Positions 1,199-12,553 of a stretch of 64,000 nucleotides of DNA are shown here, piece after piece. This DNA comes from an uncultured Bacillota bacterium. GTDB taxonomy: Bacteria > Bacillota_I > Bacilli_A > RF39 > UBA660. A program made the translations under genes and the position numbers. The notes beneath the pieces were generated by a model. That model saw nothing but the letters and a program-made list of their open reading frames with translations, had not been told where the DNA came from and did no database searches. The DNA lies in the NCBI GenBank assembly GCA_946407495.1, contig CAMJOB010000001.1, positions 9,549 through 73,548 of the forward strand, read 5' to 3'. The stretch's first letter is position 1, and the number at the start of each line of letters is the position of its first letter.

Positions 1199-1270
1199 TC
1201 CCTTATGGTGTAATGGTCAGCACAGGAGGCTCTAACCCTCTTAGTCTGCGTTCGAATCGTAGTAGGGGTA
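1199..1270 (+). tRNA. amber suppressor tRNA, anticodon CUA (reads UAG); short variable arm and mismatched 1:72 pair favour a Gln-type identity
   Basis: Manual cloverleaf: acceptor tccctta/taggggt (U1:U72 mismatch, A73), U8, D-stem gtgt/gcac with aatggtca loop (G18G19), anticodon stem ggagg/cctct, loop cTCTAac (U33, CUA, A37), 4-nt variable, T-stem ctgcg/cgtag with TTCGAAT loop; no encoded CCA. Confidence 0.8.
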
Positions 1271-1342
1271 CTTCTTCATACTTTTCACGTCACTAAGGTA
1301 TCGGATGACCTTATTGATTTTTACTGTTTTTAATCATGATAA

Positions 1343-2258: not shown

Positions 2259-4172
2259 ATGGAAATTACTAAACAAAACGGAAATATATGTTTCGCAGAA
2301 AAAGAACATATATATTGGGATCAAACAAATCCTAATGCTAAATATGTATCTGTAACTACTTTGATACATAGTTTTACACAACCTTTTGATAAAGAATTTT
2401 GGTCAGCGTATAAAGCATTAGAAAAAATATTAGATGCAGAATCTTGGAAAATTTTAAAGAAAGAATTATTACAAACTAAGAAATTTACTAAAGAAATTCT
2501 TTCAAATTATGATGTTCAAGAAATTGAATTTAATAAAGTACAACAAGATATACTAGATGACTGGCAACAAGAGAATTTTAAATCTTGTGAACGTGGAACT
2601 AAAATACACGCAGAATTAGAAAATTCAATGTATGAAATGGGAGCTAATGTAACTCTTAAAAAATTCGGAGTAGGTGGTACATTTACTTGTGAAAAAAATA
2701 GAACAGCATTAGACTTAGAAAATGGAGTTTATCCAGAATATCTTATTTCATACGAATCTCCAGATGGAATATTAAGAATAGCTGGACAAATTGACTTACT
2801 TGTTAAACGTGGTAACAAAGTTATAATAATGGACTGGAAAGGACTTCCTTTAAACACAAATATTCCTACACCCGATGGATTTAAACTATTAAAAGATTTA
2901 AAAGAAGGAGATATTATTTATGATAAAGATGGAAATTTTACAAAAATTTTACATAAATCAGAAATTCATAATAATCCTTGCTATAAAATAATTTTTGATA
3001 ACGGTGATGAAATAGTCGCAGATCATGAACATCGTTGGGAAATTTCTTTTAAAACTCAACCATCTTCAAAATGGCATGGTGAGTATAGACAAGAAGTTAT
3101 GACTACTGAACAAATTGCTAATTATTTAAAGCAAATTAAAGATAAAAAAACTTCTTATAATATTCCAAAAATATTAAATGCTAAACCTATTAAAACTAAT
3201 AATATAGATTTACCAATTGATCCATATGTTTTAGGTTGTTGGTTAGGAGACGGATCAAAACAATGTGGAATTATAACAAACGAAACAAATAATGTTTTAG
3301 GAGAAATTCAAAGAAGAGGATATACATTAGGAAACGATATTTCTGGAGAAAATAGAACATCTTCTTATACAATATTAGGAATATATTCAGCATTAAAACA
3401 ATTAAATTTAATTAATAACAAACATATTCCAGAACAATATATATTTAAAGCTTCTTATGAACAAAGATTAGATTTACTTAGAGGATTAATGGATACTGAT
3501 GGTTATTATAATCCAAAACGAAAAAGATTTGTAATGGAAACATCGCAAGAATGGCAATGTTACGATTTTATAAAACTTTTAGGAAGTTTAGGAATAAAAG
3601 CTACTAAATTTGATATTATTAAAAAATTAAATGGAAAAGAATTTCATGAATATAGTATTAATTTTAGTACATTATCTTTAAATCCTTTTTTAATGAGAAA
3701 TCAAAATATTGAATTTCCTATTAAAGATAAATGTTCTTTTAGAAATATAGAATCTGTAGAATTATGTGAAACTATTCCTACTCAATGTTTAGAAGTAGAT
3801 AGTCCTAGTCATACATTTTTATGTACTGAAAAATTTATAGTAACACATAATACGAATAAGAAAATTGATTTAAAAGGAGGATTTAATACTCAAACTAAAT
3901 CTACAGCTAAAATGCAATATCCATTAAATACATTAGATGATTGTAATTATATGCATTATACAATGCAATTATCTACATATGCTTGGATGATTAATAAATT
4001 ATTTGGATTTGAAATAGAAGATTTAATTCTTGTGCATTTTGACCATAATGGAAATAAAACGGTATATCATTTAGATTACTTAGAAAAAGAAGTAGAAAAT
4101 ATGCTCAAATTCCACAAAAAGAATTTATTAAAAGAAATACAGAGAAATAAAAGAGTTCCTATAGAATATTAA
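2259..4172 (+). CDS. PD-(D/E)xK (RecB/Cas4/YqaJ-like) nuclease interrupted by an intein; N-extein 2259-2840, C-extein 3852-4172; no TAG codons
   Basis: extein motifs GQIDLL (D), IIMDWK (DxK) and QLSTY (QxxxY) flank a 337-aa Hint+LAGLIDADG insertion; single 637-aa ORF. Confidence 0.65.
   Translation: MEITKQNGNICFAEKEHIYWDQTNPNAKYVSVTTLIHSFTQPFDKEFWSAYKALEKILDAESWKILKKELLQTKKFTKEILSNYDVQEIEFNKVQQDILDDWQQENFKSCERGTKIHAELENSMYEMGANVTLKKFGVGGTFTCEKNRTALDLENGVYPEYLISYESPDGILRIAGQIDLLVKRGNKVIIMDWKGLPLNTNIPTPDGFKLLKDLKEGDIIYDKDGNFTKILHKSEIHNNPCYKIIFDNGDEIVADHEHRWEISFKTQPSSKWHGEYRQEVMTTEQIANYLKQIKDKKTSYNIPKILNAKPIKTNNIDLPIDPYVLGCWLGDGSKQCGIITNETNNVLGEIQRRGYTLGNDISGENRTSSYTILGIYSALKQLNLINNKHIPEQYIFKASYEQRLDLLRGLMDTDGYYNPKRKRFVMETSQEWQCYDFIKLLGSLGIKATKFDIIKKLNGKEFHEYSINFSTLSLNPFLMRNQNIEFPIKDKCSFRNIESVELCETIPTQCLEVDSPSHTFLCTEKFIVTHNTNKKIDLKGGFNTQTKSTAKMQYPLNTLDDCNYMHYTMQLSTYAWMINKLFGFEIEDLILVHFDHNGNKTVYHLDYLEKEVENMLKFHKKNLLKEIQRNKRVPIEY
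2841..3851 (+). mobile_element. intein (Hint domain with LAGLIDADG homing-endonuclease core) inserted in the nuclease DxK motif; atypical Gly at position 1
   Basis: block A-like GLPLNTNIPTPDG...GDIIYDKDG, block B DHEHRW, LAGLIDADG motifs LGCWLGDGS and LRGLMDTDGYY, block F/G ...HTFLCTEKFIVTHN followed by +1 Thr. Confidence 0.75.
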
Positions 4173-4271
4173 TCTGAGTAGATATATCGTAACTTTATAT
4201 TTTAGAGTATTGTAATTTTAAAAATCAAATACTAAAAACAACATTAATTAAAATCGAAAGGATTAATATTT

Positions 4272-4559
4272 ATGGGAATTATAAATCAAAGTAAAAATAT
4301 AATACAAGGACATATAAATGAGTGGTTTAATTTAAGTGAAGACCTTTCAAGTAAAAGAATAGCCATTTGTAAGAAATGTCCATTATACAGACAGAATACT
4401 CCTGGACTTGGTGAAACTTGTGATAGGAGAAAGTGGTTAGATCCAAAAACAAACGATGTGTCTTTAGAAAAGAAAGACGGTTATATTAGAGGATGTGGTT
4501 GTAGATTGCGGGCTAAAACCACACTTCCTGAAACAATGTGTCCCGCATTTAAATGGTAA
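4272..4559 (+). CDS. Cys-rich small protein (CxxC...C...GCGC...C), possible Zn-binding
   Basis: ORF track 95 aa; TAA stop; no TAG. Confidence 0.35.
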   Translation: MGIINQSKNIIQGHINEWFNLSEDLSSKRIAICKKCPLYRQNTPGLGETCDRRKWLDPKTNDVSLEKKDGYIRGCGCRLRAKTTLPETMCPAFKW

Positions 4560-5158
4560 TATGTAATATGAATAATCTTAATAGAACAACTTTAACAGAA
4601 CAAGAAAAATTCGCATTAAACGTAGCAAAAGCAAATGGACTCTCAGGAGACCTTTCAGTAAATAATCAAGACCTTAACGTAATAGTAGATCGTGAAGCTC
4701 GTGCTAAATTCAACGATGAAGTAGATAAATTTAACGAAGCTACTATTGATTATGAGAAAAAGATTCACGAAGCTAATGAAAGGCTTTCTAAAGATATGAA
4801 CAATATTGAGTGTAAACCTTTATTCCAATATATTCATGTTGTACCTTATGATACAAACCCATTCCAGAAATTGGAAAAGAAAGGAAATCTTATAATTCCA
4901 ACTTATGAACCTACACATTTCAGTAATGAAACAGGTAAAGAAGAGAAAGATAAACCTTATATTATTGTAGCTGATGTTGTAGAGATTGGACCTGAGGTTA
5001 AATTTGTAAAGCCAGGTGATGTAGTAATGTATCTTAGAATAAATGAACTCCCAGTTCCTCTTTATAATACAGGAATTAAGTGTGTTCAAGAGCGTAGTGT
5101 TATCGCTGTTATTAATGAAGGATTAAGTGAACGTTTTAAAAATATAACAAACAACTAA
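4553..5158 (+). CDS. GroES-like (Hsp10 fold) protein with N-terminal coiled-coil extension; start among ATGs 4553-4568 uncertain
   Basis: C-terminal ~100 aa follows GroES pattern: KPLFQYIHVV / KKGNLIIP / IIVADVVEIGPE / VKPGDVVMY / ERSVIAVI; no TAG. Confidence 0.4.
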   Translation: MVICNMNNLNRTTLTEQEKFALNVAKANGLSGDLSVNNQDLNVIVDREARAKFNDEVDKFNEATIDYEKKIHEANERLSKDMNNIECKPLFQYIHVVPYDTNPFQKLEKKGNLIIPTYEPTHFSNETGKEEKDKPYIIVADVVEIGPEVKFVKPGDVVMYLRINELPVPLYNTGIKCVQERSVIAVINEGLSERFKNITNN

Positions 5159-5159
5159 T

Positions 5160-5381
5160 ATGGAAGAAAAAATATATTTCATGCCAGGAGACATAGTAAG
5201 CTTGAAGTAGGATATTCCTAACAAGCCTACTATGCTTGTGGTTAAAAAGGAAACCTATATCTTTAAAAATCAAAAAGATAAATAGGATAATGGTTTAATG
5301 GGAATTCGTTGTAGATGGTTCGCAAATGATGGAACTCTACAAGAAGCAATTTTTAATACAAAAGATCTTATAAAACTATGA
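5160..5381 (+). CDS. DUF2158/YodC-like small protein (73 codons, two in-frame TAG at 5208 and 5283)
   Basis: MPGDIVSLK-x-DIPNKPTMLVV ... GIRCRWFANDGTLQEAIFNTKDLIKL matches YodC family pattern; ATG overlaps upstream stop, TGA overlaps next ATG. Confidence 0.55.
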
Positions 5382-7120
5382 TTAACTATTTTCAACAAGG
5401 AGGACAAGTTGCTGATGAAAAGCAACAAATGCAAGAAATGTTTATGCAGTATCTTGCAGAAAAATATCAAACAGAAGATATAAACGCATTAGTTTAGCAA
5501 TTATAGTCAGAACCAGGTGAAACAGGTGAAACTAAATTAGAAGATGAATTAATCTCATTTCAATAGATGTTACAACAAGGTGGACAAGCACCATTAATGG
5601 CAGAAAAAGGAGCAAAATTAGATTATATTAAATCACTTAAAGGATTTTGTCCAGACGGAACACAAGTTGAATATTATAAAAATGGTAAGAAAATTTGTGG
5701 TAAGTGTATTGCTAAACAAGAAAATGGTGCTAAAATGAACCAGAAGAAATTCTTTACTCCAGCTGATGTTCCATCTGCTTGTAAAGGAGGAAAAGCTAAG
5801 AAATCTTGCAATGGTGCTAAACTTACTAAGAAATGTAAAACAGGTGGAACCATAGAATTTTTTCAAAAAGGAGGAACTCCTAAACTTCAAACTATAACTG
5901 TTGATGGTAAACAATATGGTCGTTATAAAGCTGGACAGCAATGGAGAGAAGTAAATAATGGTAAATTAGGTTCTGCTAAATACGATATTCGTAATGGTAA
6001 AGCACAAATCTTATTAACTAAGGCTGCTAAAGAGCGTGAAGCAAATGAATCAACTGTAGTAAAAGCAAGTGGTGCAAATGCTAAAAACGCTAAATATGGT
6101 AAAACATATAGAGGTGGAGTTTATGCAAATGCTGCATCTCAAGCTGAAGCTGAGAAACGTGCTATTAACGATAAAGTACAATATTACGATTATAACGGTA
6201 AAGTTTATAAAACTAAGTGGAATGATACTCCAACTGCACAAGGTGTAATTGATAATAGAGTTGAAATGGCTGGTCTTTACGGAAACGACTTAGGTTGGCG
6301 TAATTCTGGACGTTATAATGCTAAATCTAGACAGCATCGTAATAATGAAAGAATTTCTGCAAACGGAATGTCTGATGCACAATTTAATGCACAAATTGAT
6401 GCACAAAGACAACAACAATTTGCTGATCAACATAACGCAGAACTTGCAGATAGAGATTTAGCAAAACGCGCAATTGCATCTGAACTTATGGATGCTTCTA
6501 CAGCAGGTTTAGCACGTGGATTTAATCCATTCGGATATACAAATGATATAGTTAATGGAAATTATGGTTCACTTGCAGGTAGAGGTGTTGAAGCAGGTCT
6601 TACTCTCGCTGGTGGATCACTTATGCCTAAGATTCCTGGTATGCACAGACTTGGAAGATATTCTGATGTATTAAGACTTAGTTTAAATAAAGGATTTGAC
6701 AAAGTTGATAATTTCTTATGGAATGGTGTTCCTCAAAAAATTGTAAGTTGGGGTGGACGTTATATGCCAAAGAATAATGGTGGCTTTGTTAGAACTTATT
6801 TTGCTGAACCTTCAATGAGAACAGGTTTAGAAAATGCTAATCCTGTTGATTTAACAGTTAATATTGGAGGTAAGATGGCTAAAGGTGCTGTTGAAGGTGC
6901 TAAAAATGCTGGTAGCAAGATTGGAACAAGTCTTTCTGAGTTTGGACAAGATGTTGGTGCATTAGGTAGACAAATTGGACAAGGAGTTAGTAACACTGGT
7001 GCTAAAGTTAAAAACGCTTGGGTTAATCATCCTGATGATGTTATGTTAGGTGCTGGAGTTATAGTTCCTTCAAGTACAGCAGTTGGAATAGCTGGATATA
7101 ACTATTTTAATAATAAATAA
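5378..7120 (+). CDS. hypothetical Gly/Lys-rich protein (580 aa) with three QQGG-type motifs and Cys pairs; 3 TAG in first 80 codons, none after
   Basis: frame 2 continuous from ATG 5378 through TAG 5537, 5546, 5603 into ORF 5567..7120. Confidence 0.5.
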
Positions 7121-7127
7121 TTGAATT

Positions 7128-7712
7128 ATGCAAAAGATCTTTGTATACAATAATGGAACAGGACAAATTGAATTAAACATTCCTGAAATAATTTTAATTG
7201 ATGAATTTCATGCTTTGATGGATAATAAGAGAAATGTTTGTAAAGAAGATCCTGAAGGTATTCAACATTTAAGAGCATTTAGAGAATTTACTTATATTTG
7301 GTTAGCTATTGATTGGTTAAGTTTATATAATGATTATTCTAATCAAGAAAGACACCAAGAAGCATTAAGAGATTCTCAATTAACTGAAGAAGAATTTAAT
7401 GATCCTATATTTAGAGCAGCTTGTAGAAAATATCGTGAATTACAAAACTCAACACGATCAATTAAACTTTTACAAGCTGCTCAATTAACAGTAGATAAAT
7501 TTATTGACTACTTTACTAATATAGACCCAGAAGAAAGAGATCCTCAAACTGGAAAACCTATATTTAAAGTAAAAGACATTATGGCAGAAATGTCTAACCT
7601 TAGTAAAGTGTTAGAAGAATTGAAAATTTTAACTGACCAAGTTAAGAAAGATACACAAGCTGAATCTAAAATTAGAGCAGGAGCAACAGAAGGATATACT
7701 CCTAATTTTTAA
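7128..7712 (+). CDS. hypothetical protein directly upstream of TerL (terminase small subunit candidate by position only)
   Basis: ORF 194 aa, no TAG, TAA stop 2 nt before TerL ATG. Confidence 0.3.
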   Translation: MQKIFVYNNGTGQIELNIPEIILIDEFHALMDNKRNVCKEDPEGIQHLRAFREFTYIWLAIDWLSLYNDYSNQERHQEALRDSQLTEEEFNDPIFRAACRKYRELQNSTRSIKLLQAAQLTVDKFIDYFTNIDPEERDPQTGKPIFKVKDIMAEMSNLSKVLEELKILTDQVKKDTQAESKIRAGATEGYTPNF

Positions 7713-7714
7713 TT

Positions 7715-10117
7715 ATGAGTGAAATTAAATATAATAAAGATGGAAGTATTGCTAAGAAAAGAGGACGTCCTAAAAAGTAGAAACCTGAAATTCCAATAGA
7801 ACTTCCACAAGAAGTACAAGATATAATTAAAAAGGCTACTGAAGAAGTTCCAAAAATTACTGAAGTTCAAGAAGATCCATTAGCTAAAGTAAAAGAAGCT
7901 GTAAGAGATTCTTTTAATGGATGGGATGTTCCTAAAGAAGAACGTATTACACGTTTTGATAAAAGACTTTCTTATGAACTTACTGGATATAAACCAATTA
8001 CTGCAACTAAAAGTTTAGACTTTAGACCAGAATGGTTTACAGAAGCCAGAGATACCTTTTTAAGAACAGGTAAATATTGTAGTTATCCATTTCGTTCTAA
8101 AGCATACGATGACTTTTGGCATGAAGAATATGTAAGATGTAGAGATGGATATACTGTAAATGGTTATACACTTACAGGACCAAACTATTATTATCTTAAC
8201 TATTATCAATTACCTAATATTGATGTAGAGAAAGCGGGTAGTGGACGTTTAGCTGTATTTCCAAAATTCTTAGTATTTCAATATGAGTTCTTTCATTATT
8301 TTGAAATATGTAGAATACTTAAAAAAGATGTATGTTTGATGAAAGCTCGTGGAGTAGGATTTAGTGAGATTAACGCTGCCATTTGTGCTTGTATTTATAA
8401 TTGCTTTAGAGAAAGTAACTGTATGATAACAGCACAACTTAAAAACTATCTTGATAAATCATTAGATAAAGCATGGAACGCTTTATCTTTTACAAACGAT
8501 AATACAAGTGGTGGTATGTTCAAACTTACACAAGTGCATAACACTCAATATTATAAAAAATCATCTTGGTACAAAAAAGAAAACGGACAAGATATTGAAA
8601 CAGGTTGGAAATCACAAATCGTAGGAATTGTAGCAGATACTGATGCTAAGATTCGTGGTGATCGTGTTGACTTACTTGTTTATGAAGAGGCTGGATCAAA
8701 TACAGCTTTACGAAAATCTTATATTAAGGGTAAAGCCTTAATATATATTGGTGGTAAAAAGTTCGGAATAAGAATGTGTGGTGGTACAGGAGGAGACCGC
8801 GGTATTGCACTTGCAGACCTTGCAGATATGTATAATGATCCTGAGTCTTTTGATGTATTACCATTTTATCACAATTATACACCGTCTGGAGATTGGATTG
8901 AAACTGCTTATTTCATTCCTTCTTATATTGGAGCTGTAACAGAATACGGAGAAGATGCTGATGGTGTTAAAAGAAGACTTCTTGATGAAAGAGGTTATTG
9001 TTTTTGGGAAAATTACAAAGAACAATTAGATTACGATAGATCCAAAATTAAAAATCCTAAAGCATTAATTGAACATTGCGCAGAGTATTGTTATACTGCT
9101 GATGAAGCCTTTGCACTTGAGGGTGAAAATAAATTTAATAAAGTTTTATTAACAGAACAATTAATGCGTATTCGTGTTTTAAAACAAGCACCTAAATTTG
9201 ATTATGGTGTACTTAAATTTAAATACGAGTCTGGAAAACAACATACAAGTGAAAACGTAAGAGGTGTAACTTGGCAATCTACCGCTAAAGGTCCAGGAAC
9301 AATCAAGATTCTTGAGCATCCTTTATGGGAATGTCAACCTAAGAAAGATGAATCTGGAATGATAATCTGGAATCCACCTGATAAACAAGCTAATTTATAT
9401 GTAGCTGGTTGTGACGGTATTGACTTAGGTAAACAAGATACATCTGAATATACAAAAGACCCTTCTGATTTTTGTCTTGTTATTTATAAAAGACAATTTG
9501 GATTAAGTGATCCACAGATTGTTGCTATTTATAAAGATAGACCACAAGACATAAGAGAAGCACATGAAACCGCAGTTAAATTAGCAATGTATTATAATTG
9601 TTTAATTAACATAGAGGCTTCACGTATATCGTTAGTCGGATATTGTAGAGACCGTGGATGGTTAAATTATTTAATGAAACGTCCAAGTATGTGTTTTTCT
9701 GATGTTACAAGAAAACATAGAGCAGGTTTACAATATGGTGTTCCTGCTACTGTAGCAAACATTGACCACCATACCGATTTAACAAGAGATTTCATAAATG
9801 ACTATTCACAAGGTATTTGGTTTGAAGAGTTCTTAGTAGAAGCTACCAAATATAGTGATGAAGAAAAACGTAAATTCGATATTATTGCTGCTACAGGTAT
9901 GGCACTTATGGGTAATGAAGAATTAGGTTCATTAGTTCCTAAAACAGTTGCACCTGTAGAAGTAAGACATCAAGATATTGGATATTATACAGATGATAGA
10001 GGAATTAAACGATTTGGTGTTATTCCAGATAAATACGCTGTTAAACTTAAAATAACACCTCCAACTAAAACATATGGATATGGAAGACAAACTAACCCAA
10101 GATATAGAGACTATTAA
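7715..10117 (+). CDS. terL: terminase large subunit (TerL); one TAG at codon 22 (7778-7780)
   Basis: Walker-A-like KARGVGFS, ATPase core DRVDLLVYEEAGS, C-terminal RNaseH-like nuclease region (YVAGCDGIDLG); frame 2 continuous from ATG 7715 into ORF 8336..10117. Confidence 0.85.
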
Positions 10118-10361
10118 ACAAGAAGTTATTGATATAGTTGAAGAATTATATGAATGTAAATTTATAGGTAAATTAAAAGTTACAGCATTAGATCCTGTTG
10201 GATATTCTGTAGCAATTGATTTATTATAGGGTGAAGATCCCATATTTATCACTGCAGAATTTCCTCATGATAAATTCTTAAAATTCTTATGTGAAGAATT
10301 AAGAATGAGAACTTTAGATAGAGTACAATTATTTGGTTTATATAAAGTATTTCCTAAATGA
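10074..10361 (+). CDS. small hypothetical protein (95 aa) overlapping TerL 3' end in another frame; one TAG (10227); TGA overlaps portal ATG
   Basis: frame 0 ORF from ATG 10074 through TAG to TGA 10359-10361; acidic helix-rich. Confidence 0.3.
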
Positions 10362-12553
10362 CTGCTGAAGACGAAAGATTAATAGAATTAACAAACAGAA
10401 CGATTTCTGATTTAGTATACGAAAAGACGGAACTTCAGAAAGCGTATAACATATATAATGGAAAACGCGACAAAGAGTAGTATAAGTATCTTGAAGATAA
10501 TTTCGGAATAGGTACACCTACCTCTGTCGAGTTTACTCCATTAGTAAGAAAGCACGTTGATGCTATGGTAGGTGAGTTTTTAGGAACTCCTATATTACCA
10601 AAAATTACGTGTAAAGATAAAGAAACAATAAGTAATATACAACGTGAAAAGCAACTTAAAATAAATGCTGAAATTGTAGATTATTTAAAGCATCATTTAC
10701 AAAATTAGATTTTAAGATTTATTACAGGAAAAGCAATGGATGATACTTCTGTTAAAAATAAACTTCAACAAATTGTAGAAGATTTAGATGAAGATTTTAT
10801 TTCTGAATATGAAGTTGCTGCTTAGAATGTAATACAATATATTTTACAAAGTAGAAGAACTGATTTATTAACTAAATTAAAGTTAATTTTACTTGATTTA
10901 TTTATATCAGGATATACTTTTTATAGAGCTAAACCTTCTACTGCAAAAACTAATGTTGAAGTAGAAGTTTTAGATCCAAGAAATACATTTATTGATAGAA
11001 ATCCAGAATCTCCTTATGTAAAAGATTCATATAGAGCTGTAGTTAGAAAATGGTTGAGTAGACCAGAAATATTAGCTCGTTATGGAAAAGATTTATCAAA
11101 AGAAGATGTTGATAAATTAAGAGAAGAATTTGAAGGATTAGATCAAGGTGGAAGTTTTTATAGAAGAAGTCTCGAAGGTGTTCCTTCTCCAATGTCAGAA
11201 GGAATACAAGCAAGATTTGAAGGAACAATAGGTCTTGATGCTGAAAGTAATGCAAATTATAGACTAATTCCTGTATATGAAGTAGAATGGATAGAAACCG
11301 ATGAAAATTTTGTAATGCAGAGATATGAAACAATTCGTATTGGAGATAACCAATCAGAAGATAGTTTCTTTATCTTAAAAGGAAAGAATGAAAATGTAGT
11401 TCGTTCTAAAGATGATCCTGCATTTTGTACATTATCAATAAATGGTTTATACTTTTTAAATAGAAACGATGAACCTTATTCTTTAGTTTTAGCTTGCGCG
11501 CATCTTCAAGACAAATATGATATACTTCACTTTTTCAGAGATAATCTTATTGCAAATAGTGGCACTGTTGGTGATTGGATCGATGTCTCGCTTATTCCAA
11601 CATATTTAGGACCAGAACCAACAGAAAGACTGCTTAAATGGATCAGTTACAAAAAATCAGGAATAGGATTAATTGATACAGCTCAAGAAGGTAGAATTGC
11701 TTCAGGACAAGCTCCACTTAATCAAACTTTTAGTGGCTTTGATGATACTATTAAAGCTCAAGCAATTCAATCTATACAATTAGCAATAGAAGATGTTGAA
11801 AATAACTGCTCTTCTATTACAGGTGTATTTAGAGAAAGACTTCAAGGTATAGAACAACGTGATGCTGTTACTAATATTAAACAAGGTGTTCAAAACTCGT
11901 TTATTGTAACTAAGCAATGGTTCCATCAAATGGATACTATTACTGCAGAATTATTAATTGATTCTTTAAATGTTGCTAAAGTTGTTTATAAAAAAGGACT
12001 TACAGGAACAATTATTCTTGGTGATAAAAGACAGAAAATATTTACTGCTTTACCAGAATATTTCACAGTAACTGATTATGATATAAGTGTTGTTACAAGT
12101 TCTGAATTAATTCAAGACTTGGAACAAATAAAAGCAGTAGTTCCAGAATTTATTAAATCTGGACAATTACCTGCTGATATATTATTTGAAATTATAACTT
12201 GTAAGAGTCCATCTGATATTAAAATAAAAATCAGAAAAGCCTTAAAGAAACAAAAAGAAGAAAATAATACAATTCAGCAATTACAACAACAATTACAAGA
12301 AGCTCAACAACAATTACAACAATTACAAAATGAAAATTCTCAGCTTAAATCTAAGGTTGAAGCACTTAATGAAAAGAGACTTCAATTAGATGCTCAGAAA
12401 ATTCAACTTGATAATAAAGTTAATATGTTTAAAGCTCAAACTGATAGAGATTACAAAACAATTGAAGCACAAGTTGATCAAGATAAAGTTAAGATAGAAC
12501 AGGCTCAATTATACGATAATAATCCATATAATGATAAAATTAGAATGTCATGA
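10358..12553 (+). CDS. portal protein (call by size, position after TerL and C-terminal coiled coil); 3 TAG codons
   Basis: frame 2 continuous from ATG 10358 through TAG 10475, 10706, 10823 into ORF 11054..12553; 731 aa. Confidence 0.55.

What the first reader, a model, noticed from the sequence alone, without database searches (positions are those of the whole stretch)
2841..3851. Intein with LAGLIDADG endonuclease inserted in the DxK catalytic motif of a PD-(D/E)xK nuclease; atypical class-3-like features
A 337-aa insertion splits the nuclease exactly between IIMDWK and TNKK. RecB/Cas4-family proteins normally have D-[YW]-K-T there, so this is the active-site Lys. The insert has Hint block A (GLPLNTNIPTPDG...GDIIYDKDG), block B (DHEHRW), two LAGLIDADG motifs (LGCWLGDGS, LRGLMDTDGYY) and a C-terminal ...FLCTEKFIVTHN followed by Thr+1. 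Position 1 is Gly, not Cys/Ser, and block B has Asp where Thr is usual. There is a Trp two residues after the block-B His, a Cys in block F and a Thr before the terminal His-Asn. These are the WCT hallmarks of class 3 inteins, which splice with a non-nucleophilic residue 1. Alternatively it is a splicing-defective intein and the nuclease is expressed split.
Basis: partly seen in the sequence, partly recalled or inferred. Interest (0 to 1): 0.75.

Follow-up and report, generated by a model that had tools for sequence, protein, structure and literature searches.

The report
Class 3 intein in phage nuclease
A self-splicing, mobile protein insert (an intein carrying its own homing endonuclease) sits right after the catalytic lysine of a phage DNA nuclease; it is real and almost certainly functional, but it belongs to a kind of intein already described at this same nuclease motif in other phages.

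Summary
Gene 2259-4172 (+) encodes a 637-aa precursor. Codons 195-531 (nt 2841-3851, 1011 nt) are absent from phage contigs that are otherwise 98% identical, and those contigs read IIIDYK|TNKK across the site. The insert has every class 3 intein hallmark: Gly1, His64 (B10), Trp66 (B12), Cys316 (F4), Thr335-His336-Asn337 and Thr+1. Its best solved-structure matches are the class 3 mycobacterial DnaB inteins (E=3e-14). It models at pLDDT 96 as a HINT domain plus a LAGLIDADG domain. All key residues, Gly1 and both LAGLIDADG aspartates are invariant or nearly so in more than 100 homologues that are only about 48% identical, and dN/dS is about 0.15. The kind is already known. Class 3 LAGLIDADG inteins at motif III (ExK|T) of RecB/Cas4-like exonucleases are described in actinobacteriophages (Catera gp206 type). 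Asp at B7 is normal for class 3, and Gly1 is standard for this large metagenomic clade (99 of 106 representatives). It is a new member of a known kind. The minor new points are a gut-phage Gly1 clade that Pfam and NCBIfam HINT models miss, and a conserved Cys47 equivalent to the redox-partner Cys48 of Msm DnaBi1.

The parts
2259..4172 (+). Precursor gene: 637 aa, 74.3 kDa, TAA stop; no in-frame TAG
2259..2840 (+). N-extein (aa 1-194) of a PD-(D/E)xK nuclease. It contains GTKIHAELE (2595-2621), motif II GQIDLLV (2784-2804) and motif III D192-W-K194 (2832-2840).
   Evidence: PDDEXK_1 25.1 bits (cutoff 22) and phrog_298 exonuclease E=2.4e-24 on the spliced sequence. The motif residues are nearly invariant in alignment A1.
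2841..3851 (+). Intein, 337 aa, 39.0 kDa (Gly1 ... Asn337)
   Evidence: Exactly this segment is missing from the 98%-identical contigs L001-L004. PDB phmmer hits class 3 DnaB inteins at E=3e-14. AF2 pLDDT 96.2. Foldseek hits PI-SceI, class 3 DnaB inteins and I-DmoI.
2841..2879 (+). Block A, GLPLNTNIPTPDG. Gly1 is non-nucleophilic.
   Evidence: Gly1 in 105 of 105 homologues with this position present and in 99 of 106 [DE]xK-site representatives.
2979..2981 (+). Cys47, equivalent to Cys48 of Msm DnaBi1, which is essential for splicing and is the disulfide partner of the catalytic Cys
   Evidence: Alignment; conserved in 94 of 99 representatives; role in Msm DnaBi1 from PMC6195587.
3003..3038 (+). 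Block B, GDEIVADHEHRW: Asp61 (B7), His64 (B10), Trp66 (B12, the W of WCT)
   Evidence: 111 of 111 invariant for each; aligned to ADAAHQW of MchDnaB1.
3231..3257 (+). First LAGLIDADG motif, LGCWLGDGS (catalytic Asp137)
   Evidence: Asp in 118 of 119; helix 128-137 in the model.
3477..3509 (+). Second LAGLIDADG motif, LRGLMDTDGYY (catalytic Asp220)
   Evidence: Pfam LAGLIDADG_3 25.7 bits, cutoff 22.5; Asp in 115 of 119.
3774..3821 (+). Block F, IPTQCLEVDSPSHTFL. Cys316 (F4, nt 3786-3788) is the predicted initiating nucleophile.
   Evidence: Aligned to VPVRCVEVDNPAHLYL of MchDnaB1; Cys in 114 of 114.
3831..3854 (+). Block G, KFIVTHN, plus Thr+1: Thr335 (G5), His336, Asn337, Thr532
   Evidence: T in 113 of 115, H in 114 of 114, N in 113 of 114, +1 T in 112 of 114.
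3852..4172 (+). C-extein (aa 532-637 plus stop), with the Q/Y motif YTMQLSTYAW (3957-3986)
   Evidence: Nearly invariant Y, Q and Y columns in A1.

Best explanation
This is a functional, mobile class 3 intein with a LAGLIDADG homing endonuclease, sitting between Lys194 and Thr195 of motif III (D-x-K|T) of a phage PD-(D/E)xK exonuclease.

Inferred mechanism, by homology to characterised class 3 inteins:
1. The 74-kDa precursor folds.
2. The thiol of Cys316 (F4) attacks the Lys194-Gly195 peptide bond. It is positioned in a Cys-His64-Thr335 triad with Trp66. The N-extein is moved onto Cys316 as a branched thioester.
3. Thr+1 takes over the N-extein by transesterification.
4. Asn337 cyclises, assisted by His336, and releases the 39-kDa intein.
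5. An O-to-N shift rebuilds the Lys-Thr bond, giving the active 35.3-kDa nuclease.

The nuclease cannot be active before splicing, because 337 residues separate its catalytic Lys from the downstream Thr and Q/Y motif.

The freed intein, or the precursor, is predicted to cut intein-free alleles (...ATAGACTATAAA|ACAAATAAG...) in co-infecting related phages. Repair from the intein-bearing copy then spreads the element.

Shown here: the exact insertion, the homology, the fold, the residue conservation, the purifying selection and the presence/absence polymorphism. Inferred: the splicing chemistry, the endonuclease activity and its target.
For: Exact insertion:
- A 1011-nt insertion relative to 98%-identical contigs, whose gene product is 99% identical to the spliced extein.

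Homology and fold:
- phmmer against the PDB finds, as best hits, the class 3 MchDnaB1 (6rix/6riy, E=3e-14) and Msm DnaBi1 (6bs8). Both HINT lobes align, and H-x-W, Cys F4 and T-H-N are in register.
- The AF2 model has pLDDT 96.2 and pTM 0.93.
- Foldseek matches PI-SceI (TMq 0.74-0.77), the class 3 DnaB mini-inteins (TM on target 0.79-0.82) and I-DmoI for the endonuclease lobe.

Conservation and selection:
- In an alignment made without imposing motifs, G1, D61, H64, W66 and C316 are invariant. T335, H336, N337, T+1 and both LAGLIDADG Asp are 97-100% conserved. The 120 homologues have a median identity of 48%.
- The same holds in 99 representatives of 50% clusters.
- dN/dS against the nearest intein (L015) is 0.16 for the HINT N-lobe, 0.15 for the endonuclease and 0.11 for the HINT C-lobe.

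Mobility:
- Only 1 of the 120 closest extein clusters carries an intein; 115 read D[WYHF]K|TN uninterrupted.
- Four of the nucleotide differences from the intein-free allele lie within 12 nt of the junction (Poisson P about 1e-3).
- Intein carriers have exteins only 26% identical (median) but inteins 49% identical.

Precedent:
- Class 3 LAGLIDADG inteins at the PD-(D/E)xK motif of RecB/Cas4-like exonucleases are described in actinophages (PMC5050341; bioRxiv 10.1101/2025.01.02.630785).
- CharlieB gp205 reads VELK|SLACSTPILT...CITV...FVPTHN|TQ and is 31.5% identical to this intein.
Against: - No experiment has been done. Splicing, the Cys316 branch and endonuclease cleavage are all inferred.
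- Pfam and NCBIfam HINT/intein models give no hit at E<=1.
- In another class 3 intein (AceL NrdHF), an A1G substitution abolished trans-splicing (PMC7891396). Gly at position 1 is therefore not automatically compatible with class 3 chemistry.
- The nearest relative of this intein (L015, 86% identical over the part compared) is interrupted by a frameshift at a poly-A run. Decaying copies may therefore exist, unless that is an assembly error.
- dS is close to saturation (0.8-1.1), so the dN/dS values are approximate.
- The exact precursor sequence is not on record elsewhere.
Confidence: 0.85

Rival explanations
1. The intein is splicing-defective or decaying. The precursor stays unspliced or only cleaves, and the phage either does without this nuclease or has it complemented by relatives or the host.
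For: Gly1 lacks a nucleophile, and A1G killed splicing in AceL NrdHF. A Gly1 intein with degenerate motifs (Arsp-FB24) was shown to be a pseudogene (PMC3196547). The nearest intein copy (L015) carries a frameshift. A relative (P0139) has a 212-aa version without LAGLIDADG motifs, showing that decay occurs at this site.
Against: The ORF is intact over 637 codons. Every residue needed for class 3 splicing is present and invariant across more than 100 diverged carriers, including Gly1 itself. dN/dS is 0.11-0.16 in both HINT lobes. Unlike Arsp-FB24, it keeps His B10 and Cys F4.
Confidence: 0.08
2. The intein splices, but not by the class 3 route. For example, Thr+1 attacks the N-terminal scissile bond directly (class 2-like), and Cys316 has only a structural or redox role.
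For: The mechanism is assigned purely by homology. Residue 1 is non-nucleophilic in class 2 inteins as well.
Against: Class 2 inteins (KlbA) lack the WCT triplet, whereas here W66, C316 and T335 are invariant. The closest solved relatives are biochemically verified class 3 inteins in which the equivalent Cys is obligatory (PMC6195587 C118A; PMC2807308). Thr+1 is the usual class 3 partner.
Confidence: 0.04
3. The 337-aa segment is a native accessory domain of this nuclease family and not a removable element.
For: More than 100 homologous nucleases carry the segment at the same place.
Against: A 99%-identical allele lacks it precisely. 115 of the 120 closest extein clusters lack it. The same domain occurs after P-loop lysines of terminases, helicases and other proteins. 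It has a HINT plus LAGLIDADG fold.
Confidence: 0.01

Closest known systems
Class 3 inteins of actinobacteriophage RecB/Cas4-like exonucleases (MP-Catera gp206 type; 40 in cluster C1 per Kelley et al. 2016, 138 Cas4-exonuclease inteins in the 2025 PhagesDB survey)
   Same: Class 3 WCT signature, a canonical LAGLIDADG endonuclease, and insertion directly after the Lys of motif III with Thr+1 (CharlieB: VELK|S...THN|T; SDD: EFK|T). The host is a phage PD-(D/E)xK nuclease. The full-length intein alignment is 31.5% identical.
   Different: Residue 1 is Ser in CharlieB gp205 and Gly here. The exteins show no pairwise similarity (BLASTP E=7); both only touch the same stretch of the PDDEXK_1 profile. 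The host phage here is a 29% GC, TAG-recoded gut-type phage and not an actinophage.
Mycobacterial DnaB-1 class 3 mini-inteins (Msm DnaBi1, PDB 6BS8; MchDnaB1, 6RIX/6RIY)
   Same: They are the best solved-structure matches (E=3e-14 to 3e-13). Shared residues are Asp B7, His B10, Trp B12, Cys F4, T-H-N, and the extra Cys (Cys48 there, Cys47 here).
   Different: They are mini-inteins without an endonuclease, have Ala1, are inserted after the P-loop Lys of a helicase, and are bacterial.
Mycobacteriophage Bethlehem DnaB intein (prototype of class 3)
   Same: Non-nucleophilic residue 1, the WCT triplet, Thr+1, a LAGLIDADG domain, about 340 aa, and a phage host.
   Different: It has Pro1 and a helicase P-loop insertion site. 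Tori et al. (2010) noted that all inteins then known to lack an N-terminal nucleophile (apart from KlbA) were in helicase-like or ATPase proteins.
PI-SceI (VMA1 intein)
   Same: It is the best overall fold match (TMq 0.74-0.77), with the same two-domain architecture of a HINT domain plus a LAGLIDADG endonuclease.
   Different: It is a class 1 intein (Cys1), is only 12-14% identical, and has an additional DNA-recognition region.
AceL NrdHF split class 3 intein
   Same: Class 3 chemistry in a probable phage gene found in metagenomic data.
   Different: It is split, lacks an endonuclease, and has Ala1. Its A1G mutant is inactive, whereas Gly1 is the invariant natural residue here.

Membership tests
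Class 3 intein | No Cys/Ser/Thr nucleophile at intein residue 1 | tested here: met
   Gly1. The boundary is fixed by the intein-free allele. Gly is found in 105 of 105 homologues.
Class 3 intein | Trp at block B:12, two residues after His B:10 | tested here: met
   H64-R-W66, aligned to H-Q-W of MchDnaB1; 111 of 111.
Class 3 intein | Cys at block F:4 | tested here: met
   Cys316 is aligned to the catalytic Cys of 6rix/6bs8; 114 of 114.
Class 3 intein | Thr at block G:5, followed by His-Asn | tested here: met
   T335-H336-N337.
Class 3 intein | Ser or Thr as first C-extein residue | tested here: met
   Thr532; 112 of 114 Thr.
Class 3 intein | HINT fold | tested here: met
   AF2 pLDDT 96. Foldseek against 6bs8/6rix gives TM on target 0.79-0.82, E about 1e-7. 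Pfam and NCBIfam HINT profiles do not hit.
Class 3 intein | Splicing through a branched thioester on Cys F:4 | not testable with these tools
   Needs expression and C316A, N337A and T+1A mutants.
LAGLIDADG homing endonuclease (intein-embedded, two-motif monomer) | Two LAGLIDADG helices, each ending in an acidic residue | tested here: met
   LGCWLGD137G and LRGLMDTD220G. Pfam LAGLIDADG_3 is above cutoff. Asp is found in 118 of 119 and 115 of 119. The fold matches I-DmoI and PI-SceI.
LAGLIDADG homing endonuclease (intein-embedded, two-motif monomer) | Site-specific cleavage of the intein-free allele | not testable with these tools
   Indirect evidence only: sporadic distribution, a cluster of substitutions at the junction, and dN/dS of 0.15 in this domain.
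PD-(D/E)xK nuclease superfamily (host protein) | Profile match plus the D ... (D/E)xK core | tested here: met
   On the spliced sequence: PDDEXK_1 25.1 bits against cutoff 22 (17.5 when unspliced), and phrog_298 exonuclease E=2.4e-24. D178, D192 and K194 are conserved.
Cas4 (TIGR00372 equivalog) | Score at or above the curated cutoff | tested here: not met
   21.9 bits against a cutoff of 65. Treat the host protein as a RecB/Cas4-like superfamily member only.
Allelic with the actinophage Cas4-exonuclease intein insertion site | Same position in homologous exteins | tested here: inconclusive
   Both follow the Lys of (D/E)xK and precede Thr, and both exteins match PDDEXK_1 profile positions of about 120-170. 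However, the exteins show no pairwise similarity, and the CharlieB match is below the Pfam cutoff.

The most novel reading that the evidence does not exclude
The invariant-Gly1 clade is the dominant intein at the PD-(D/E)xK motif III lysine outside actinophages. It may activate the N-terminal scissile bond differently from Ala1 or Pro1 class 3 inteins, given that A1G inactivates AceL NrdHF. With its conserved Cys47/Cys316 pair, equivalent to the Cys48-Cys118 redox trap of Msm DnaBi1, it could make maturation of the phage nuclease conditional on a reducing cytoplasm, in phages that probably infect gut anaerobes.
Probability: 0.2. Interest if true: 0.45.

Novelty: new member of a known kind. Interest (0 to 1): 0.25.

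Why it matters
For annotation: standard HINT profiles miss this intein. The gene looks like a 637-aa hypothetical protein with a stray LAGLIDADG domain, and the nuclease profile only passes its threshold once the intein is removed. Relatives are very numerous: 16,549 representatives of 50% clusters at E<=1e-3 and 2,393 at E<=1e-30.

For intein biology: the class 3, motif III nuclease niche is known from actinophages. This case extends it to AT-rich, TAG-recoded gut-type phages. It also provides a natural series of Gly1 class 3 inteins, which could be useful for asking how the N-scissile bond is strained without a residue-1 side chain. Such inteins might also serve as protein-engineering parts.

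None of this overturns current understanding.

Tried and rejected
- Pfam and NCBIfam scans for HINT/intein models on the precursor and on the insert found only LAGLIDADG_3 and a weak Hom_end hit. I rejected this as evidence against an intein because direct PDB sequence and fold searches are clearly positive.
- My first conservation count used regular expressions that required G1 and HN. I discarded it as circular and repeated it on an unconstrained whole-protein alignment.
- A megablast of 12 kb of the window against GenBank phages found only a tRNA match, so there is no close cultured relative.
- An exact look-up of the precursor protein found nothing on record.
- Tori & Perler 2011 (PMC3133030) and the supplementary tables of Tori 2010 are not held. 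The published frequency of Gly1 among class 3 inteins could therefore not be checked. I estimated it from the 150 best representatives instead.
- Pairwise BLASTP of this extein against the CharlieB gp205 extein showed no similarity, so strict allelism with the actinophage site remains unproven.
- I first read the higher identity of inteins than exteins among carriers as recent horizontal transfer. The dS values are only modestly lower in the intein (0.8-1.1 against 1.1-1.5), so stronger constraint explains much of it. The firm evidence for mobility is the presence/absence polymorphism between 98%-identical phages.
- A scan of all six frames of the window with a family HMM found no second intein of this family.
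Full report
OBSERVATION

Window 2259-4172 (+) is a single 637-codon ORF ending in TAA.

The insert boundaries are confirmed from outside the window. A search with the conceptually spliced 300-aa protein found P0121, a 300-aa protein that is 99% identical. Its four contigs (L001-L004) align with the window at about 98% identity over 1-2835 and 3847-8786 and lack the 1011 nt in between. The apparent 5-nt offset from 2841/3851 arises because BLAST slides across mismatches next to the junction. Codon by codon, the free allele reads ATA ATA ATA GAC TAT AAA | ACA AAT AAG (IIIDYK|TNK). The window reads ATA ATA ATG GAC TGG AAA [1011 nt] ACG AAT AAG. The insert is therefore Gly195-Asn531, preceded by the motif III Lys and followed by Thr.

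WHAT IT IS

Profile libraries:
- Pfam recognises only a LAGLIDADG_3 domain in the insert.
- It scores the PD-(D/E)xK profile above threshold only after the insert is removed (25.1 against 17.5 bits; cutoff 22).
- NCBIfam intein models are silent.
- PHROGs matches the insert to intein-bearing terminase families, and the spliced extein to phrog_298 'exonuclease' (E=2.4e-24).

Solved structures:
- A direct phmmer search of PDB sequences gives the class 3 inteins as best hits. These are Mycobacterium chimaera DnaB1 (6rix/6riy, E=3e-14) and M. smegmatis DnaBi1 (6bs8).
- Both HINT lobes align. The query ADHEHRW matches ADAAHQW, and IPTQCLEVDSPSHTFL...IVTHN matches VPVRCVEVDNPAHLYL...MVPTHN.
- This places Asp61, His64, Trp66, Cys316, Thr335, His336 and Asn337 at blocks B7, B10, B12, F4, G5, G6 and G7.

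Predicted structure:
- An AlphaFold2 model built on 91 sequences has mean pLDDT 96.2 and pTM 0.93.
- Foldseek against the PDB returns PI-SceI (TMq 0.74-0.77) for the whole two-domain architecture.
- It returns the class 3 DnaB mini-inteins (TM normalised on target 0.79-0.82) for the splicing domain, and I-DmoI for the endonuclease lobe.

IS IT ALIVE?

- The intein query finds 352 clusters at 90% identity. The top 120 are all nucleases carrying it at the same D-x-K|T site.
- The alignment was made without imposing any motif, and median identity to the window is 48%.
- Where the position is present, these residues are invariant: Gly1 (105/105), Asp61, His64 and Trp66 (111/111 each), Cys316 (114/114) and His336 (114/114).
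- Thr335 is found in 113/115, Asn337 in 113/114 and Thr+1 in 112/114.
- The two LAGLIDADG aspartates are found in 118/119 and 115/119.
- Against the nearest available intein DNA (L015), Nei-Gojobori dN/dS is 0.16 for the HINT N-lobe, 0.15 for the endonuclease and 0.11 for the HINT C-lobe. dS is near saturation, so these values are approximate.
- Both the splicing and the homing functions therefore appear to be maintained by selection.
- The calculated products are a 74.3-kDa precursor, a 35.3-kDa spliced nuclease and a 39.0-kDa intein.

MOBILITY

- Among the 120 closest extein clusters, 115 read D[WYHF]K|TN uninterrupted and only one (P0139) carries an intein.
- The window differs from the intein-free L001 at 1.8% of flanking positions. 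Four of those differences fall within 12 nt of the junction (Poisson P about 1e-3). This is what a short co-conversion tract at a homing or recombination site would leave.
- The nearest inteins (78-86% identical) sit in syntenic phages whose exteins are only 57-63% identical.
- Whether the window lineage gained the intein or L001 lost it by recombination cannot be decided from these data.

MECHANISM (INFERRED BY HOMOLOGY)

In verified class 3 inteins, the F4 cysteine attacks the N-terminal scissile bond and forms a branched thioester. The +1 Ser/Thr then takes the N-extein, the terminal Asn cyclises, and an acyl shift restores the peptide bond (PMC2807308; PMC7891396). The MchDnaB1 structure shows a protease-like Cys-His-Thr triad made of F4, B10 and G5, with the B12 Trp alongside (PMC7664689). 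The same four residues are present and invariant here. Splicing is required to bring Lys194 next to Thr195 and the downstream Q/Y motif, so the intein gates nuclease activity.

COMPARISON WITH WHAT IS KNOWN

- Kelley et al. [quoted passage not shown]
- A 2025 survey counts 138 inteins in actinophage Cas4 exonucleases. It describes insertion at EFK|T and proposes switching between terminase and nuclease sites.
- I retrieved one example, CharlieB gp205. It reads ...VIPVELK|SLACSTPILTTNG...TDAEHLW...VRCITV...FVPTHN|TQNS and is 31.5% identical to the window intein over its full length.
- The architecture, the class and the motif-level insertion site are therefore already described.
- The exteins themselves are not detectably similar pairwise. 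Both only touch the same region of the PDDEXK_1 profile. Strict allelism is therefore unproven.

THE 'ATYPICAL' FEATURES

Asp at B7:
- It is shared with MchDnaB1, Msm DnaBi1 and CharlieB.
- It is present in 99/99 nuclease-site relatives and 44/65 other relatives.
- It is reported as one of the usual residues in functional class 3 inteins.

Gly1:
- An exhaustive HMMER search of 1.84 billion representatives gives 16,549 hits at E<=1e-3 and 2,393 at E<=1e-30.
- Among the best 150, 99 of 106 inteins following a [DE]xK have Gly1. The others have Ala, Pro or Asp.
- Inteins at P-loop and other sites mostly have Ala or Pro, but five have Gly.
- Eight class 3 relatives sampled from cultured phages have Ala1 (six), Ser1 or Glu1. 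The exception is an unannotated gut-phage record from the same Gly1 clade.
- Gly1 is thus the norm for this clade and falls within the class 3 definition.
- It is mildly interesting because A1G abolished splicing in AceL NrdHF. The one Gly1 intein discussed in the early literature (Arsp-FB24) is a pseudogene lacking His B10 and Cys F4.
- I could not obtain published residue-1 statistics.

CONTEXT

- The window is a 29% GC phage segment with no close relative in GenBank phages.
- Upstream on the minus strand is a lysozyme-like gene. Downstream are small ORFs of unknown function, then the terminase large subunit and the portal.
- No second intein of this family is present in the window.

VERDICT

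The residual novelty lies in three points: a very large Gly1 clade in non-actinobacterial, gut-type phages that I found described in no held paper; the blindness of standard HINT profiles to it; and the conserved Cys47 that matches the redox-partner Cys48 of Msm DnaBi1.

Noticed in passing
window 1199-1271 (+); 7706-10117; 10358-12553: There is a tRNA with anticodon CUA (an amber suppressor; ARAGORN labels it tRNA-Pyl). It is 92-94% identical to the 'tRNA-Gln' of crAss-like phages cr60_1 and cr53_1. Reading TAG as sense lengthens many + strand ORFs. The terminase's only upstream ATG lies beyond an in-frame TAG at 7778, and its PHROG score rises from 181 to 246 bits. The portal spans three in-frame TAGs and rises from 89 to 144 bits. 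This points to TAG-to-Gln recoding of late genes, a known phenomenon. The intein-bearing gene has no in-frame TAG.
   Followed up: partly
P0139 (512 aa, NCBI, 158-kb contig); same site as window 2841-3851: A nuclease whose extein is 74% identical carries a 212-aa intein at the same DWK|T site. It keeps blocks A, B, F and G (including W, C and THN) but has no LAGLIDADG motifs. It looks like an endonuclease-decayed mini-intein stage of the homing cycle.
   Followed up: partly
L015 2923-4877 (Logan SRR12177865 contig, syntenic with the window): The closest intein relative (86% identical over the part compared) is split into two called genes. A frameshift at the A-run corresponding to window ~3140-3150 (GATAAAAAAACT), between the HINT N-lobe and the endonuclease, causes the split. 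It is either an assembly indel or a recently inactivated copy.
   Followed up: partly
window 2979-2981 (intein Cys47): Cys47 aligns with Cys48 of Msm DnaBi1. That residue is essential for splicing and forms a disulfide with the catalytic Cys under oxidative stress. Kelley et al. 2018 call it non-conserved, but it is present in 94 of 99 nuclease-site relatives and 38 of 65 other class 3 relatives.
   Followed up: partly
P0245, P0250, P0263, P0273, P0325, P0334-P0336, P0348, P0370 (representatives): These are very long proteins (1100-1900 aa) carrying two to five separate matches to this intein. The matches follow GxGK, GE, DxK and other sites, with Ala1, Pro1 or Gly1. They are multi-intein hosts related to this family.
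   Followed up: no
window 2259-4172, and Pfam/NCBIfam generally: Curated HINT and intein profiles (Pfam Intein_splicing, Hint, Hint_2; the NCBIfam intein N- and C-terminal models) give no hit at E<=1 on this high-confidence intein. The host PDDEXK_1 match falls below threshold while the intein is in place. This is an annotation blind spot for a clade with thousands of representatives.
   Followed up: yes
P0122 (437 aa, ENA): This is an intein-free homologue with an internal tandem duplication of about 137 aa (IGGKFECIKDY...TVYHLP occurs twice). It is probably an assembly artefact and not a real variant.
   Followed up: no
window 4272-4559 (+): This is a 95-aa Cys-rich ORF (CKKCP...CDRRKW...GCGCR...CPAFKW) immediately downstream of the nuclease. 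It is conserved in the intein-free relatives and in L015, and matches only phrog_13558, which has unknown function.
   Followed up: no
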